A stretch of 64,000 bases of DNA, from IMG/VR virus record IMGVR_UViG_3300030099_005838. One strand, written 5' to 3'. Under the pieces are notes generated by a model. That model was not told the DNA's origin and made no database searches. It saw only the letters and a list, made by a program, of their open reading frames with translations. This document shows positions 10,966-28,046 of the stretch, one piece after another. Made by a program: the position numbers and the translations under genes. How positions within the stretch are numbered: position 1 is the first letter of the stretch; each line of letters opens with the position of its first letter. This stretch comes from a virus.

Positions 10966-10974
10966 ATATTTATA
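10966..10974 (+). promoter_or_regulatory. putative late promoter motif
   Basis: ATATTTATA 5 nt before ATG 10980. Confidence 0.5.
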
Positions 10975-22542: not shown

Positions 22543-22557
22543 ATATTTATAATTGTA
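22543..22557 (+). promoter_or_regulatory. putative late promoter motif
   Basis: ATATTTATAATTGTA, identical at 29402-29416. Confidence 0.55.
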
Positions 22558-22564
22558 TAGATTT

Positions 22565-23800
22565 ATGGAGATTACTGTGACCAAAAATGAATTTAGAAAT
22601 TTAGTTGTATCTGAACTGAGAGATTATTTAGAAGCTAAAATGAGTTCAGAAGAAACTAAAGTCCTACAGTTTCTAATCAAGCATGGTGCCAACCCAAAAG
22701 AAGCAGAAAAAGATGTAAAGAAACATTTCAAAAATGCTAAAAGAATTTGGAAGGGTTCTACCCCAGCAAAACTTGCAAATAAAATCTCCTTTTTGGCCGC
22801 CAACGAATCCATTACAGAATCTCACCATGATAGAAAGGAAGGTAAGATGGCTAAGTATGATGCCAAAGAAATAGCAGAAGATTCACTTGCAGTCTTCAAA
22901 ATGATAGATAAAGATATGGACTTACCCGAATGGTTAGAAGCTAAGATTACAAAGTCGGCTGACTATATGAACTCAGTAAAAGACTATCTAACCCACCATA
23001 TGAAAAGTGATGATAATGAGAATCAGTCTCAAAACGAAGATATGAAAAATACCTATAATATGATGAAGTCTGTTCGTAAAGGACCTAAAGTCGGACCTTG
23101 GGATATCATTGTAAGTAAAAATAACAAAGTAGTAAAAAGAGTACTTGTAAAAAATCTAAAAGAGATACCAGCGGAAATGTCTGATTTGAGAGATAAGTAC
23201 CCAAACCATGTTATCGGTATAGAATCTAAAGCAGGTAAGATAGTTTACAGAGAAGGAACCTGTGGTTATGGAGTAGATGGTAAGTTAGGTGAAGAACCAG
23301 CAGGCCCACATTTATTAAATAAAAGAAGATTACTAAAGTCTAAGAAGTTTGATTTAGATGAGGCTTGTCAAAAAGGATATATGACACATCCAACACGTAA
23401 GACTAAGATTATGTTTGGTAAGAGATATAGGAATTGTGTTAAGAAAGAAGGAGTTGATACTACAGTTACCTTAGAACAGCTAGAACAAATTGCAGATAAT
23501 ATTTGTGTAAATTGTGGCGACTTTACAAATGAAAATTTAAGAAAGTGGTTCAAACAGAAATGGGTGAATATCGGAAAGAAAAAGAAGGGTGGTGGGCATC
23601 CACCGTGCGGTACAAGTGGAAAGAAAAGAGGATATGCTAAATGTGTACCAGCAGCAAAAGCTGCTCGTATGACTAAGAAACAAAAAGCAAGTGCTACCCG
23701 TAGAAAAAGAGCGGCACAGAATAAAGCAAATAGAGGTGGTAAACAATCGGCTGGACAGGGTAAGAAACCGATATACGTTTCTACAAAACCGAAGAAATAA
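22565..23800 (+). CDS. mosaic putative internal head (poly)protein
   Basis: Leader KNEFRNLVVSELRDYLE; short basic Cys-containing modules separated by xxE linkers. Confidence 0.55.
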   Translation: MEITVTKNEFRNLVVSELRDYLEAKMSSEETKVLQFLIKHGANPKEAEKDVKKHFKNAKRIWKGSTPAKLANKISFLAANESITESHHDRKEGKMAKYDAKEIAEDSLAVFKMIDKDMDLPEWLEAKITKSADYMNSVKDYLTHHMKSDDNENQSQNEDMKNTYNMMKSVRKGPKVGPWDIIVSKNNKVVKRVLVKNLKEIPAEMSDLRDKYPNHVIGIESKAGKIVYREGTCGYGVDGKLGEEPAGPHLLNKRRLLKSKKFDLDEACQKGYMTHPTRKTKIMFGKRYRNCVKKEGVDTTVTLEQLEQIADNICVNCGDFTNENLRKWFKQKWVNIGKKKKGGGHPPCGTSGKKRGYAKCVPAAKAARMTKKQKASATRRKRAAQNKANRGGKQSAGQGKKPIYVSTKPKK

Positions 23801-23801
23801 A

Positions 23802-24245
23802 ATGATTAAATTAAAAGACTTATTATACGAACAAGAGGTTGATAAAGATTCATCACATAAAATACCCGATCATTTTGGTAGTGGAAAAGAGATAACCGTA
23901 AAAGGTTATAAAACTAATCATTTTGATATATGTGCATCCGCCGTTGAACTATTCACCAAATTGGATAAAGTTGAAGATGAGGAAGCAACAGAATACATAA
24001 TCGAGGCAGCTAAGGGTATGGACCATATATTTGAGATGGAAAAAGCTGTGGTGAGAAAGGAAGCATTAAATCACGACCCAATCAAGCATGGTATAGAATT
24101 AACAAATACGGTTTCGTTTCAGTTAGGTTATGTAGCAAAAATCACAGGTGAAGATTTTATGAAGGAAACTTTATTTATACCAGCCCATATAATGGTAATG
24201 ATTGAGAGACAGGATACTATAAAAATAGAGAAAGAAAATGATTAA
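23802..24245 (+). CDS. MIKLK-leader protein
   Basis: MIKLKDLLYE at ATG 23802 (track start 23691 overlaps upstream gene). Confidence 0.7.
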   Translation: MIKLKDLLYEQEVDKDSSHKIPDHFGSGKEITVKGYKTNHFDICASAVELFTKLDKVEDEEATEYIIEAAKGMDHIFEMEKAVVRKEALNHDPIKHGIELTNTVSFQLGYVAKITGEDFMKETLFIPAHIMVMIERQDTIKIEKEND

Positions 24246-24741
24246 ATTAAAAAGTTTATTAGTAGAACAGCCTATCGTAGAGGAAGCCGGTGTCTTCAAA
24301 AACAAAGATGCTGATAAGTATCTAAAAGAACTTTTGGATATGTTGGGTGAGGAGACTTATAAAAGTGATAAGGAGTATGGTTGGTATGATGTTACACTCA
24401 AAGATCCATACTATGTAAAAAAATTGGACAAGGTGTATATAATAGATGAGTCAATACCACATTCGTTTCCAGCAGACCATAGGGATTTCTGTTACTCACA
24501 GTATACCGTACCTGAGTGGAAACCGAAGGATGGACAACATACAATAGACACTCAGTTATTTGAGGACTTTGCCAAAGTAACAGGTTCGATAATTATAGAT
24601 GGGCTGAAGGGAACTGTTACGGCAAGGTGTGGTGATTTGGTGGCAAATGATGTCACAATAAATTTTGTTCTTGATGTAGTCAAAGGAAAGATTGATGCTT
24701 CAAGAGATGAGTATAAAAAGAGAATATTAGCAACGAGGTAA
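24238..24741 (+). CDS. MIKLK-leader protein
   Basis: MIKLKSLLVE. Confidence 0.7.
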   Translation: MIKLKSLLVEQPIVEEAGVFKNKDADKYLKELLDMLGEETYKSDKEYGWYDVTLKDPYYVKKLDKVYIIDESIPHSFPADHRDFCYSQYTVPEWKPKDGQHTIDTQLFEDFAKVTGSIIIDGLKGTVTARCGDLVANDVTINFVLDVVKGKIDASRDEYKKRILATR

Positions 24742-24743
24742 TT

Positions 24744-25052
24744 ATGGATAAATATAATAAATCAGTACAACATCAATGATTCCACCATGCTACTTGGGGG
24801 GACTCCAAGTATAAAAAAGAAGGTGTGGGAAAAGTAATGTGGCATTCACTCACAGAAGATGGACAAGTAGAAGTGGTGAATATACAATTTGGAAAAAACT
24901 TTTATGAGAATGTAAGTGTGAAACATTTAAAACCTATCAAAATGGAAGCACATGGACATCCTGCAGAAAAAGAAAAGAAGGTGAAGAAAAAGCCTAATAA
25001 TGAAGTAAAGGAAATTGTAATCAATGGAACTAAGTACCGCCCGGTTAAATGA
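24744..25052 (+). pseudogene. interrupted or recoded ORF
   Basis: GAGG SD, ATG 24744, in-frame TGA at 24777-79, frame continues into track ORF 24825. Confidence 0.45.
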
Positions 25053-26655
25053 AAAATGGAGCAAGAAATACAAAAAGAGTATTGATTGTAATAACCCAAA
25101 AGGATTTAGTCAGAAAGCACATTGTGCTGGAAGAAAGAAGAAGGAGAATGTAATGAGTTCAAAGTTAGAAGAGTTGGTAGGTAAAAGACTTACAGAGGAA
25201 CAGTTCGATGAAGCTGCAGGTAAGAAGGATGCTTGTTACTATAAGGTAAAGGCTCGTTACGATGTATGGCCTTCGGCATATGCAAGTGGAGCACTTGTAA
25301 AGTGTCGTAAGGTTGGTGCAAAGAATTGGGGTAATTCAAAGAAAGAAGGTGTGAATGAAGCTAGTATGGAATTAAACAAACTCAAAGACGCAATCAAAAT
25401 GTTTCAAAAGAAAATTGAGAAGCAAGGTAGAGTTACTAATGCAAGAGATGAAGAACACCTATCCAACTTAATTAAACTTTACAAGCAAATGGGTGGTAAA
25501 GGTGTAAAAGAAGGTGTCAATGAACAGAGTTGGCATAAAGATTTCAAAGGATATAGTGATAAAGAACTAAAAGTTATTTCTAAATTTATTATGTTGAATG
25601 ATAAAGGTATTGATGGTGTTATCAAAATGTCTAAGAAAAAAGATTTTAAACCTTTGATAAAAAAAATGGCACAGAAAGGATTACACGAAGGTTTAGATGA
25701 TTTGAAAGCCTTACCAAAAGATTTGAAGAAAAGTATTAAAAAGAATAGGGAAGAAAATGTAAATGAAGCTAGAGACCCTATTATAGATAAGATGGATAGA
25801 AAAACAAAAATCACCTTTTCTAAAAGTTTGAGTCCAAGACTAAATCACTTAAAAGGTAAGACACTTACAGTTGTTAAAAAAGGTATTAATCTTTTCAACG
25901 TATTACCTGATGGAGCTAAGTATAATCCAGCAAATGTCAGAACGATAGAAGCACCAGTGCTTTTGAGAATGATGAAGAATAGAGCCATAACAAAAATTAT
26001 TGATGGTAAAGGTAAGGTTCTTCATAATGTCAAAGAAGGTGTAATCAAAGAAAATCCAGCGGCAATAGCAGCTGCACAAAGAATGGTTGTACAGAATAAG
26101 TCAGGTAATAAGATATCTGTAAATACTGCACGTCAATCTTCTTATGCACAAAAAGACCCTTCTACTCATAAGAAAGCCAAAAGTATGTTTCAGAGAATCA
26201 AAGATAAATTTAAAAAGAAAGAATCCGTAGATGAAGCCAGAGGAACTTGTTGGGTAGGATACCAACAAAAAGGTATGAAGGAAAAGAATGGTAGAATGGT
26301 GCCTAATTGTGTAAAAGAAATCTATGAAATTTATTATGAAGAAAATGGAGAAGGGCACGGATACACATTTGAACATATTAAGGAAAATGATTTAAATGAA
26401 GCTGAATACCAAGGTAGAAAGGTAAAGTTAGGAAAGATAATGCAGGGTGATGTAAAGAAGTTCAAAGTGTATGTAAAAAATCCTAAAGGTAATGTAGTTA
26501 AGGTTAACTTCGGACAAGGTGGTGGTGCTAAAGGTGGAACTATGAGAATCAGAAAATCCAATCCTAAGGCAAGAGCTAATTTTAGAGCAAGACATAATTG
26601 TGATAACCCAGGGCCAAGACATAAGGCCAGATATTGGAGCTGTAGAAAATGGTAA
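25024..26655 (+). CDS. polyprotein of small basic modules, putative internal head protein
   Basis: Repeated KEGVNE/EENVNE/KESVDE/ENDLNE linkers. Confidence 0.65.
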   Translation: MELSTARLNEKWSKKYKKSIDCNNPKGFSQKAHCAGRKKKENVMSSKLEELVGKRLTEEQFDEAAGKKDACYYKVKARYDVWPSAYASGALVKCRKVGAKNWGNSKKEGVNEASMELNKLKDAIKMFQKKIEKQGRVTNARDEEHLSNLIKLYKQMGGKGVKEGVNEQSWHKDFKGYSDKELKVISKFIMLNDKGIDGVIKMSKKKDFKPLIKKMAQKGLHEGLDDLKALPKDLKKSIKKNREENVNEARDPIIDKMDRKTKITFSKSLSPRLNHLKGKTLTVVKKGINLFNVLPDGAKYNPANVRTIEAPVLLRMMKNRAITKIIDGKGKVLHNVKEGVIKENPAAIAAAQRMVVQNKSGNKISVNTARQSSYAQKDPSTHKKAKSMFQRIKDKFKKKESVDEARGTCWVGYQQKGMKEKNGRMVPNCVKEIYEIYYEENGEGHGYTFEHIKENDLNEAEYQGRKVKLGKIMQGDVKKFKVYVKNPKGNVVKVNFGQGGGAKGGTMRIRKSNPKARANFRARHNCDNPGPRHKARYWSCRKW

Positions 26656-26918
26656 AGTTAAAAGAATTAATCGAAGAAGAATTATTAAACGAAGCATCTA
26701 ATGTAAAAGGTAAGATGATGACTCTACTAAAAAAAGATTTTAAAATCGTACATGATGGTTTTGTCGGTAATGTAATTGACTCGCCTGATTTAACTGATGA
26801 GGAAAAATATCAAGCATTTGGTAAGTTTAGAAAAATGATGGATACGGCTCGTTCTAATTATGTGAGTGCAGTGATGAAAGCAACTAAACCATTTGATAAA
26901 AAATTGACTGGAAGGTAA
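26649..26918 (+). CDS. MIKLK-leader protein
   Basis: MVKLKELIEEELLNE. Confidence 0.7.
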   Translation: MVKLKELIEEELLNEASNVKGKMMTLLKKDFKIVHDGFVGNVIDSPDLTDEEKYQAFGKFRKMMDTARSNYVSAVMKATKPFDKKLTGR

Positions 26919-27391
26919 TGATTAAACTGAAAGAACTACTAAAAGAAGCACCTCAGATTAAGAAGGTAAAAAATGTTTCCGTACAATACTTTGGTGCAGA
27001 GTATGCTGGTGAGATGGCTTTCTCAGGATACTTTAGAAAGGCATGGTTGTACGAAAAAGATAATGGTGAATGGTTTGCTATAGTGATTACCAAAAATAAG
27101 AATAGGTATCAGATTGAATTAGGCAAACACAAAAATAAATTAAGTGCGGATAAGGCAGCAGAAAAAATCATTAAAAGAAATCTTAACAAATTTGAATCCG
27201 TAAATGAAAAGATGAATCCAAGAAGATACTCTGAGATAAAAGGACAGGCTAGGTATCTTGCTATGGAAATGAAATCTTTAAACAAAGCTATCAGAACTCA
27301 AAATGATAAAGATTTAGTAGATAGTATAGATTACATATTAGGTAAAGCAAAAATGATGAAAGAAATTTTAACGGATAAGAGATATGATTAA
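26918..27391 (+). CDS. MIKLK-leader two-module protein
   Basis: MIKLKELLKE; internal ESVNE linker. Confidence 0.7.
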   Translation: MIKLKELLKEAPQIKKVKNVSVQYFGAEYAGEMAFSGYFRKAWLYEKDNGEWFAIVITKNKNRYQIELGKHKNKLSADKAAEKIIKRNLNKFESVNEKMNPRRYSEIKGQARYLAMEMKSLNKAIRTQNDKDLVDSIDYILGKAKMMKEILTDKRYD

Positions 27392-27758
27392 ACTAAAAGA
27401 CTTATTATTAGAAAAGAAATTAACTGATAAAGACATCAATGTTGGTGACGCATATCATAGAAAGACGCATGTTGGTTATGTGGTTAATTTTGTATATGGT
27501 AAAAATAGTTATGGTAGTTGGACAACAATAGAATATCAATTTAAACCACAATACGGAAACCCAGAATTTATGGGAGTAGGCTTTGGATCTGCTGAGGCTA
27601 TTAATGGATGGGGTAAATGGCCAAAGGTTAAAGTTACTTCTAAAATGAAAAAGGAAATGATTAAGACTTTGCAAGATAAGAATTCAGAAGAGGTGGATGT
27701 ATTAAAAAGAAATGATTTACGATTATCCAATGTATTGAGTTGGGTTAAGAGATTATAA
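27384..27758 (+). CDS. MIKLK-leader protein
   Basis: MIKLKDLLLE. Confidence 0.7.
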   Translation: MIKLKDLLLEKKLTDKDINVGDAYHRKTHVGYVVNFVYGKNSYGSWTTIEYQFKPQYGNPEFMGVGFGSAEAINGWGKWPKVKVTSKMKKEMIKTLQDKNSEEVDVLKRNDLRLSNVLSWVKRL

Positions 27759-28037: not shown

Positions 28038-28046
28038 ATATTTATA
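28038..28046 (+). promoter_or_regulatory. putative late promoter motif
   Basis: ATATTTATA upstream of phoH. Confidence 0.5.

What the first reader, a model, noticed from the sequence alone, without database searches (positions are those of the whole stretch)
25024..26655. Polyproteins of shuffled basic mini-domains joined by E-x-V-N-E linkers
About nine modules are separated by LNE, FDE, KEGVNE (x2), GLHE, EENVNE, KEGVIKE, KESVDE and ENDLNE. Several modules are Cys-paired and Lys-rich. CxxGY..K..G..NCVK occurs here and in 22565. The linker DNA AAAGAAGGTGT(G/C)AATGAA repeats at 25342 and 25507, offering recombination joints. Inference: the prohead protease releases a mix of small DNA-binding or anti-defence peptides.
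Basis: partly seen in the sequence, partly recalled or inferred. Interest (0 to 1): 0.75.

Follow-up and report, generated by a model that had tools for sequence, protein, structure and literature searches.

The report
Cleavable head-cargo polyprotein of marine phage
A marine T4-like phage strings about ten tiny, very basic protein modules into one gene, joined by the cut motif of the T4 head protease, so the chain is probably loaded into the capsid and cut into small DNA-companion proteins; the family is huge and unannotated.

Summary
ORF 25024-26655 (543 aa, pI 10, 17.7% Lys) has a 10-residue leader (MELSTARLNE) and about ten modules. Every joint carries hydrophobic-x-Glu, and the 18-nt linker repeat is real.

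- Modules are gained, lost and reordered in relatives (8,446 clusters at 50% identity).
- Before the last module (M9), 165 distinct upstream contexts all read [L/I/V/M]-x-E|A, which is the T4 gp21 motif L/I-x-E.
- Among isolates and records at least 90% complete, this form is found only where a gp21-type protease (Peptidase_S77) is present: 8 of 8. Forms of the same module without the motif (11 leaderless stand-alone, 2 embedded) occur in 13 such genomes, none of which has S77.
- Elsewhere M9 is fused to an XkdF-type prohead protease or to portal-MuF.
- The cyanophage homologue (T4-GC119, S-SM1 gene 115) was detected in purified virions.
- The gene sits in a run of six genes with T4-like 10-residue leaders (Phi8/E10).
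- Relative L002 lacks one module exactly between the two linker repeats.

Cleavage, packaging and the modules' activity remain untested, and the window's own protease gene is not in hand. This scan reported a similar head-tagged polyprotein 88 kb upstream in the same genome. Verdict: a new variant of a known kind.

The parts
25024..26655 (+). Polyprotein ORF, 543 aa, pI 10.0, 17.7% Lys
   Evidence: No Pfam or NCBIfam hit. PHROG hits are all to multi-module families of unknown function.
25024..25053 (+). 10-residue leader MELSTARLNE (Leu8, Glu10), a candidate capsid-targeting sequence
   Evidence: Same layout as T4 IPII/IPIII MKTYQEFIAE and Alt MELITELFDE, read from the T4 record. L014 has MEKDTELLSE in this place.
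25054..25212 (+). M1: WSKKYKKSIDC..HC module (2 Cys) plus the fossil leader MSSKLEEL..FDE (aa 44-63)
   Evidence: In L013 the M1 gene and the MSSKLEEL-led gene are separate. Many relatives start at MSSKLEEL or MKLEEL.
25213..25359 (+). M2: KDACYYKVK..PSAYASGALVKC module (2 Cys), ends KEGVNE
   Evidence: Shared with cyanophage T4-GC119 proteins. Phi-x-E lies at a fixed offset in 41 of 46 contexts.
25360..25524 (+). M3: helical Lys-rich cassette flanked by the two 18-nt KEGVNE repeats
   Evidence: Absent from L002, which keeps a single repeat copy. Present in L007 with a different module after it.
25342..25359 (+). Linker repeat copy 1, AAAGAAGGTGTGAATGAA
25507..25524 (+). Linker repeat copy 2, AAAGAAGGTGTCAATGAA
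   Evidence: The L002 junction carries this GTC variant.
25525..25689 (+). M4 (QSWHKDFKGY...), ends GLHE
25690..25767 (+). M5, short 26-aa segment, ends ENVNE
25768..26052 (+). M6, 95 aa, pI 10.5, ends GVIKE
26053..26235 (+). M7 (NPAAIAAAQRM...HKKAK..RIKDK), ends SVDE
   Evidence: A weak homologue (37% identity, E 0.001) lies in a 294-aa gene between prohead protease and major capsid protein of related contig G004, also preceded by LFE|.
26236..26319 (+). M8a: CWVGY..NCVKE hairpin module (2 Cys)
   Evidence: It is a free-standing 32-aa gene in pelagiphage Kolga (gp57) and also occurs in ORF 22553. A breakpoint peak lies at residues 427-432.
26320..26400 (+). M8b: acidic spacer (pI 4.3), ends DLNE
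   Evidence: It is replaced by unrelated spacers in relatives.
26401..26652 (+). M9: AEYQGRKV..FRARHNC..YWSCRKW, 84 aa, pI 11.2, 2 Cys. Modelled as a small beta-barrel plus two helices.
   Evidence: AF2 pLDDT 76.5. No PDB match by sequence or by fold.
23802..24245 (+). Neighbour gene with leader MIKLKDLLYE
24238..24741 (+). Neighbour gene with leader MIKLKSLLVE
26649..26918 (+). Neighbour gene with leader MVKLKELIEE
26918..27391 (+). Neighbour gene with leader MIKLKELLKE
27384..27758 (+). Neighbour gene with leader MIKLKDLLLE
22553..23800 (+). Second modular protein (415 aa) with LDE|ACQKGY..NCVK and NE|NLRKWFKQKW modules

Best explanation
The gene most likely encodes a capsid-internal cargo polyprotein. 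INFERRED: the 10-residue N-terminal leader (hydrophobic at 8, Glu at 10) brings the chain into the assembling prohead core, as the T4 capsid-targeting sequence does. The phage's gp21-type prohead protease (Peptidase_S77) then cuts after Glu of each hydrophobic-x-Glu joint. That removes the leader and the acidic spacer and frees about eight Lys-rich mini-proteins of 26-95 residues. These would stay with the packaged DNA, probably neutralising its charge, and enter the host with it. SHOWN: the motif sits at the joints; it goes with S77-bearing genomes; modules are shuffled; an indel is bounded by the linker repeats; a homologue is a virion protein. Because joints are encoded by near-identical DNA, they also serve as in-frame crossover points at which modules are gained and lost.
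For: (1) gp21 cuts after Glu in L/I-x-E, first seen at a Glu-Ala bond. The T4 CTS is 10 residues, with processing determinants at positions 8 and 10 (PMC9026906). T4 IPII/IPIII/Alt leaders read from the T4 record have the same layout as MELSTARLNE and MIKLKxLLxE.
(2) Before M9, 165 distinct upstream contexts give P1 = E in 165 of 165, P3 = L 117, I 30, V 12, M 6, at least 12 different residues at P2, and P1' = A in 162. Other modules carry Phi-x-E at fixed offsets, against a background of 2.9% per position.
(3) The Glu is not needed by the fold. M9 genes that start MA.Y.G, and embedded forms reading ..KAEYQG, lack it.
(4) Among isolates and records at least 90% complete, the Phi-x-E form goes with Peptidase_S77 in 8 of 8, and forms without it in 0 of 13.
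(5) M9 is fused to ChaB-DUF5824-...-XkdF prohead protease, and to portal-MuF, in other phages. In Melnitz it follows an orthologue of the virion cytidylyltransferase T4-GC190.
(6) S-SM1 gene 115 (T4-GC119; E 1.4e-20 to residues 55-169) was detected in purified virions with 13 peptide counts (PMC3037559 Table S8). Cyanophage homologues lie between gp15 or terS and terL.
(7) Six consecutive genes at 23802-27758 carry the Phi8/E10 leader, out of 9 such among 117 ORFs in the window. The same leader heads a gene next to the protease gene in G004.
(8) L002 lacks M3 with one repeat copy left.
Against: No peptide data show cleavage or capsid location for this protein. The window's own protease and capsid genes are not available. 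Syn9 gp114 was not detected in Syn9 virions. The S77 association is confounded by phylogeny, since all S77 genomes are T4-like myoviruses. Some relatives start directly at a module with no leader (MGWSKKY), and a few joints lack the motif (T-N-E in L009, N-E-E in L061). The gene lies among nucleotide-metabolism genes (UvdE, MazG, PhoH) and no TATAAATA late promoter precedes it. M9 also occurs in an archaeal spindle-shaped virus, which has no such head. In this protein P3 is often Val rather than the Leu or Ile of T4.
Confidence: 0.68

Rival explanations
1. It is an uncut, or only leader-trimmed, multi-domain virion protein. The Glu-rich joints are simply flexible linkers between DNA-binding mini-domains, and the whole chain acts as one long polycationic thread on the packaged DNA.
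For: Not every L/I-x-E in T4 proteins is cut (background knowledge). Phage N4 virion RNAP is an example of a multi-domain protein packaged unprocessed (PMC5512222). The S-SM1 data show presence in virions but say nothing about size.
Against: A plain linker does not explain an invariant Glu and an aliphatic P3 with a free P2 in 165 contexts. It also does not explain loss of the motif wherever S77 is absent, or the existence of the same modules as separate tiny genes.
Confidence: 0.15
2. It is a cytoplasmic (non-virion) set of small basic nucleic-acid- or ribosome-binding proteins made as a fusion. The Phi-x-E signature would be a lineage-specific sequence habit of T4-like phages.
For: The gene lies among metabolic genes and no late promoter was found. 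Leaderless M9 genes sit in early-looking regions of small phages and in an archaeal spindle virus. The Atlas neighbours include clusters in which a minority of members carry RMF.
Against: A homologue was detected in virions. M9 is fused to prohead protease and to portal-MuF. Cyanophage homologues lie within the structural gene block. The leader matches the T4 CTS layout.
Confidence: 0.1
3. The conserved joints exist mainly as recombination sites for module shuffling, and their protein-level motif is a by-product.
For: The two KEGVNE joints are 17/18 nt identical, three more joints are 78% alike at DNA level, and L002 differs by an indel bounded by the repeats.
Against: Across the family the joints differ widely in DNA and in P2 and P4-P6 residues, while P3 and P1 stay fixed. 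This points to selection on the peptide. The idea is compatible with the best explanation rather than exclusive of it.
Confidence: 0.07

Closest known systems
Phage T4 internal proteins IPI, IPII, IPIII and Alt (CTS-bearing gp21 substrates)
   Same: They share a 10-residue N-terminal leader with hydrophobic at 8 and Glu at 10. They are basic and Lys-rich (T4 IPs pI 8.9-9.5, 13-15% Lys). The genes lie outside the head operon, the mature parts are highly diverse behind a shared leader, and the phage lineage has a gp21-type protease.
   Different: There is no sequence similarity to the T4 IPs. Here about ten modules sit in one chain with the cut motif at every joint, whereas each T4 IP is one product per gene. 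P3 is often Val. Nothing here is shown experimentally.
Multiply cleaved head and inner-body proteins of giant phages phiKZ, 201phi2-1 and SPN3US (and T4 gp22/gp67/gp68)
   Same: A gp21-related prohead protease cuts head-internal proteins after Glu at several sites per chain (PMC5694885, PMC9026906).
   Different: In those phages the motif is S/A/G-x-E or A-x-E, and cleavage mostly removes propeptides or destroys scaffold. Here the motif is L/I/V-x-E, and the pieces look like the products, because they also exist as stand-alone genes.
Polyvalent proteins of phages and conjugative elements (Iyer et al. 2017, PMC5512222)
   Same: Many unrelated domains are combined in one polypeptide, with variable architectures, predicted to be packaged and delivered with the DNA and released by proteolysis. 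The MuF and portal contexts are shared.
   Different: Polyvalent proteins carry enzymatic effector domains and an embedded zincin-like peptidase. This one has only tiny basic modules, no peptidase, and would rely on the prohead protease acting in trans.
Cyanophage gene cluster T4-GC119 ('structural protein', Sullivan et al. 2010)
   Same: It shares the M2 and CxxGY modules (E 1.4e-20 to S-SM1 gene 115) and the same modular build with Phi-x-E before modules.
   Different: The C-terminal module differs (DUF6321 instead of M9). T4-GC119 lies between gp15 or terS and terL. It was described only as a hypothetical or structural protein, with no modular or cleavage reading.

Membership tests
T4-type CTS-bearing head-internal proteins (gp21 substrates) | N-terminal ~10-residue leader with hydrophobic residue at 8 and Glu at 10 | tested here: met
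   MELSTARLNE compares with T4 MKTYQEFIAE and MELITELFDE. Five neighbouring genes carry MIKLKxLLxE.
T4-type CTS-bearing head-internal proteins (gp21 substrates) | The phage encodes a gp21-type (Peptidase_S77) prohead protease | tested here: inconclusive
   The window's own genome is not available. S77 is present in 9 of 10 large related IMG/VR records and in all 7 related isolates carrying Phi-x-E forms.
T4-type CTS-bearing head-internal proteins (gp21 substrates) | L/I-x-E cleavage motif at the processing sites | tested here: met
   The motif is present at leader end and at all ten joints. Family-wide, P3 is L, I, V or M and P1 is E in 165 of 165 contexts before M9. Actual cutting was not tested.
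T4-type CTS-bearing head-internal proteins (gp21 substrates) | Protein present inside purified heads and processed there | not testable with these tools
   The only evidence is a homologue: S-SM1 T4-GC119 was detected in virions with 13 counts, and Syn9 gp114 was not detected.
Polyvalent proteins (Iyer et al. 2017) | Several conflict-related enzymatic or effector domains in one chain | tested here: not met
   No Pfam or NCBIfam domain was found in the 543-aa protein. Relatives do carry kinase or nucleotidyltransferase domains.
Polyvalent proteins (Iyer et al. 2017) | Embedded peptidase (MPTase) for self-processing | tested here: not met
   No peptidase domain was found.
Cyanophage T4-GC119 modular structural proteins | Shared homologous modules | tested here: met
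   Matches of E 1e-15 to 1e-20 to Syn9 gp114, PSSM2_123, PSSM4_156 and S-SM1 gene 115.
Cyanophage T4-GC119 modular structural proteins | C-terminal DUF6321 module and a position between gp15/terS and terL | tested here: not met
   The query ends in M9, not DUF6321, and lies between UvdE and PhoH.

The most novel reading that the evidence does not exclude
A small repertoire of tiny basic modules (M9, CxxGY, KDACY and others) may be a pan-viral set of 'genome-companion' proteins. Different virus lineages would load them into the particle by interchangeable devices: T4-style leader plus trans-cleaved polyprotein, fusion to an XkdF prohead protease, fusion to portal-MuF, or free-standing genes. 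In T4-like marine phages the codons of the protease site would double as in-frame crossover sites, so that cleavage grammar and recombination grammar coincide and let the cargo mix evolve rapidly.
Probability: 0.3. Interest if true: 0.85.

Novelty: new variant of a known kind. Interest (0 to 1): 0.68.

Why it matters
If correct, one of the largest unannotated protein families of ocean viruses gets a concrete, testable role. The family has 8,446 clusters at 50% identity, no Pfam model for its most conserved module, and members in cyanophages, pelagiphages and OM43 phages. The role would be capsid-packed, protease-released mini-proteins that travel with the DNA. It would extend the T4 capsid-targeting and gp21-processing paradigm to abundant marine phages. 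It would also give a simple sequence rule (10-residue leader plus L/I/V-x-E joints) for predicting ejected proteins in metagenomes. Finally, it would be a natural example of a polyprotein whose cleavage sites are also its recombination joints.

Tried and rejected
- Pfam, NCBIfam and PDB sequence searches of the protein and of an M9 profile gave nothing significant.
- The first AF2 model (M8-M9, shallow alignment) was unusable, with pLDDT 50. The second (M9, diverse alignment) reached pLDDT 76.5 but had no PDB fold match by Foldseek or VIA-align. No function could therefore be read from structure.
- The weak SH3, chromo and Sso7d-like rows are not significant, and I do not rely on them.
- A search for the window's own contig in the viral and metagenome collections failed, and no G000 genome is held.
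- The T4 late promoter TATAAATA was not found upstream on the + strand.
- The small ORF 24825-25052 had a weak PHROG 'cytidyltransferase' hit but shows no similarity to the P-SSM4 virion cytidylyltransferase. That lead was dropped.
- Long relatives were scanned for peptidoglycan-binding domains hinted at by the Atlas. None were found in the ten tested.

Full report
**What is there.** Window 25024-26655 (+) is one open frame of 543 codons. The window belongs to an uncultured marine T4-like myovirus. It carries a DNA polymerase, PhoH, CobS/T-like genes and a baseplate wedge gene, and has no near-identical isolate. The protein has pI 10.0 and 17.7% Lys. It matches no Pfam or NCBIfam family, only PHROG families of unknown function that are themselves multi-module.

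Hydrophobic-x-Glu ends at residues 10, 63, 112, 167, 222, 248, 343, 404 and 459. The 18-nt DNA AAAGAAGGTGT(G/C)AATGAA occurs exactly twice, each copy ending at a joint, and none was found in 100 shuffles. Four modules hold exactly two Cys. The CxxGY..NCVK module recurs in the upstream 415-aa ORF.

**Modules are real units and are shuffled.** A full HMMER scan found 8,446 clusters (50% identity level) with E <= 0.001, and 634 with E <= 1e-30. Lengths run from 90 to over 700 aa, and matches cover different parts of the query. IMG/VR gave more than 596 loci. In these, modules are present, absent or reordered.
- L002 (75% identical overall) lacks M3 and has an extra cassette elsewhere.
- L007 keeps M2-M3 but joins them directly to a different spacer and M9.
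- In L013 the M1 part and the rest are two genes, the second starting MSSKLEEL..FDE|AAGKKDACY. Residues 44-63 of the query are therefore a leader left behind by a gene fusion.

Alignment end-points of 544 HSPs pile up at joints 112, 167, 248, 404, 432 and 459. Of these, 52% lie within 4 residues of a Phi-x-E site, against 26 +/- 9% for random site sets (P = 0.007).

At DNA level, L002 has a single KEGVNE copy (the GTC variant) exactly where the window has repeat-M3-repeat. This is the footprint of an indel between the two repeats.

**The joint motif is the T4 head-protease motif.** T4 gp21 cuts after Glu in L/I-x-E, first seen at a Glu-Ala bond. The T4 capsid-targeting sequence is the first 10 residues of the internal proteins, with processing determinants at positions 8 and 10 (PMC9026906).

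From the T4 record I read IPII/IPIII as MKTYQEFIAE|A and Alt as MELITELFDE|D. The query starts MELSTARLNE|K. Five neighbouring genes start MIKLKxLLxE, encoded by a 30-nt DNA repeat. Only 9 of 117 + strand ORFs in the window meet the Phi8/E10 rule, and six of them are consecutive at 23802-27758. The same arrangement is kept in relatives L002, L007 and L014.

Before the most conserved module, M9, there are 165 distinct upstream contexts:

| Position | Residues |
|---|---|
| P3 | L 117, I 30, V 12, M 6 |
| P2 | at least 12 different residues |
| P1 | E 165 of 165 |
| P1' | A 162 |

Other modules show the motif at fixed offsets, against a background of 2.9% per position.

**A natural control.** M9 also occurs without the motif. 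It is found as leaderless stand-alone genes starting MA.Y.G(K/R). About 50 of 80 loci in a second IMG/VR scan are of this kind, as are pelagiphage Kolga gp56, roseophage CRP-901 gp67, podophage HTVC106P gp30 and ORF8 of a Nitrosopumilaceae spindle-shaped virus. It is also found embedded after ..KAEYQG. The Glu is therefore not part of the fold.

I then asked which genomes have Peptidase_S77 (PF03420), taking only isolates and records at least 90% complete.
- Phi-x-E form: 8 of 8 have S77 (G002, G003, G007, G013, HTVC008M, Melnitz, immuto, C48C1).
- Forms without the motif: 0 of 13 have S77 (nine IMG/VR records, Kolga, CRP-901, HTVC106P and the spindle virus).

S-SM1, Syn9 and DSL-LC02, which carry other modules with the motif, also have S77. 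The association is perfect, but it is confounded by phylogeny, because all S77 genomes are T4-like.

**Links to the head.**
- Cyanophage homologues form cluster T4-GC119 (Syn9 gp114, PSSM2_123, PSSM4_160, S-SM1 gene 115). PSSM4_156, filed under T4-GC420, also shares modules. The T4-GC119 genes of Syn9, P-SSM2 and S-SM1 and the DSL-LC02 homologue lie between gp15 or terS and terL, and all of these proteins show Phi-x-E before their modules.
- Table S8 of Sullivan et al. 2010 (PMC3037559) lists T4-GC119 as a structural protein detected in purified S-SM1 virions with 13 peptide counts. It was not detected in Syn9.
- In OM43 phage Melnitz, M8 and M9 follow, in one ORF, an orthologue (40% identity, E 2e-63) of the cyanophage virion cytidylyltransferase T4-GC190.
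- In phages of about 30-45 kb, M9 sits in one ORF with ChaB, DUF5824 and an XkdF-type prohead protease (Peptidase_S78_2). In L161 it ends a portal-MuF fusion.
- In related contig G004, the genes between protease and major capsid protein include a 116-aa gene starting (TTG) IKLKKILNE and a 294-aa gene holding LFE|NPAAIATAARM. The latter is a weak homologue of M7 (E 0.001). The capsid protein has LIDE|S about 38 residues before VQPM, where T4 gp23 is matured. That last placement is by analogy.

**What the modules are.** A second AF2 run on M9 with a diverse alignment gave pLDDT 76.5. The model has four to five short strands, then two helices bearing the Cys pair, and the spacer in front is disordered. 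It matches only uncharacterised phage proteins in BFVD, some of them named ChaB or XkdF fusions, and nothing in the PDB. Function is therefore inferred only from composition: pI 9.6-11.2 and Lys-rich, like the T4 internal proteins whose lysines contact DNA phosphates (PMC3012670).

**Weighing.** Cleavage and packaging of this protein are not shown, and its own protease gene is outside the data. Some relatives lack a leader (MGWSKKY), and a few joints lack the motif. No late promoter was seen. M9 also occurs in a virus with no such head.

I put 0.68 on the cut-polyprotein reading. The alternatives are an uncut virion protein (0.15), a cytoplasmic basic protein (0.10) and joints that are purely recombinational (0.07).

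**Comparison and novelty.** The mechanism is that of the T4 internal proteins and Alt, and of the multiply cut head proteins of phiKZ-like phages. The architecture recalls polyvalent proteins (PMC5512222), but without enzymes or an embedded peptidase. Four literature searches found no description of CTS-type cargo or such polyproteins in marine T4-like phages. T4-GC119 is only called a hypothetical or structural protein.

This scan already reported a head-tagged, cleavable enzyme polyprotein 88 kb upstream in the same genome. I did not use that report as evidence. Verdict: a new variant of a known kind, and directly testable in cultured phages.

Noticed in passing
window, 23 sites (e.g. 22544-22551, 28039-28046, 10967-10974): TATAAATA is found 19 times on the - strand and only 4 times on the + strand. 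The + strand therefore carries TATTTATA, often just upstream of + strand gene starts (22553, 28097, 10980). This may be a promoter-like element of this phage.
   Followed up: no
L102:4266-4364 (Pelagibacter phage Kolga gp57): A 32-aa annotated gene consists of nothing but the CxxGY..C module, right after the leaderless M9 gene gp56. These are the same two modules as the end of the window polyprotein, but in reverse order.
   Followed up: partly
L119:775-2154, L116:1324-2160, L169:1081-2178, L178:939-1880: In phages of about 30-45 kb, one ORF combines ChaB, DUF5824, M9 and an XkdF-type prohead serine protease. The protease gene thus carries the small basic modules as N-terminal passengers.
   Followed up: partly
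L161:1-1773: A portal (Portal_Mu) and MuF fusion protein ends in an M9 module, in the place where MuF proteins often carry effector domains.
   Followed up: partly
L108:2498-2749 (Nitrosopumilaceae spindle-shaped virus ORF8): An archaeal spindle-shaped virus encodes a leaderless M9 homologue (37% identity, E 3e-5). The module thus crosses the bacterial-archaeal virus divide.
   Followed up: no
L101:7261-7611 (contig G004): Directly after the prohead protease gene lies a 116-aa ORF that has a TTG start and the leader (M)IKLKKILNE, the same leader family as the window's five neighbour genes.
   Followed up: partly
L183 and L185, ORF holding the match at 1501-1743: Stand-alone M9 proteins begin MKTYKQVEAI..., close to T4 IPII/IPIII MKTYQEFIAE, and carry VISE|AEYQGK.
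   Followed up: no
L103:3984-4502 (Roseobacter phage CRP-901, between gp68 and gp67): An unannotated stretch encodes KDACY..PSAYGSGALVKC (M2-like) and SLRKWF..GWVNC (MX-like) modules in different frames. These are probably missed small genes.
   Followed up: no
window 24744-25052: A small ORF (GTG 24825-25052) overlaps the polyprotein start by 29 nt. An upstream ATG at 24744 is separated from it by an in-frame TGA. Another note of this scan reads it as a selenoprotein candidate.
   Followed up: no
L054:3819-7109: A 1,096-aa relative joins an M1 module to an AAA_33/Zeta-toxin-like kinase domain, so the same module set also travels with enzymes.
   Followed up: partly
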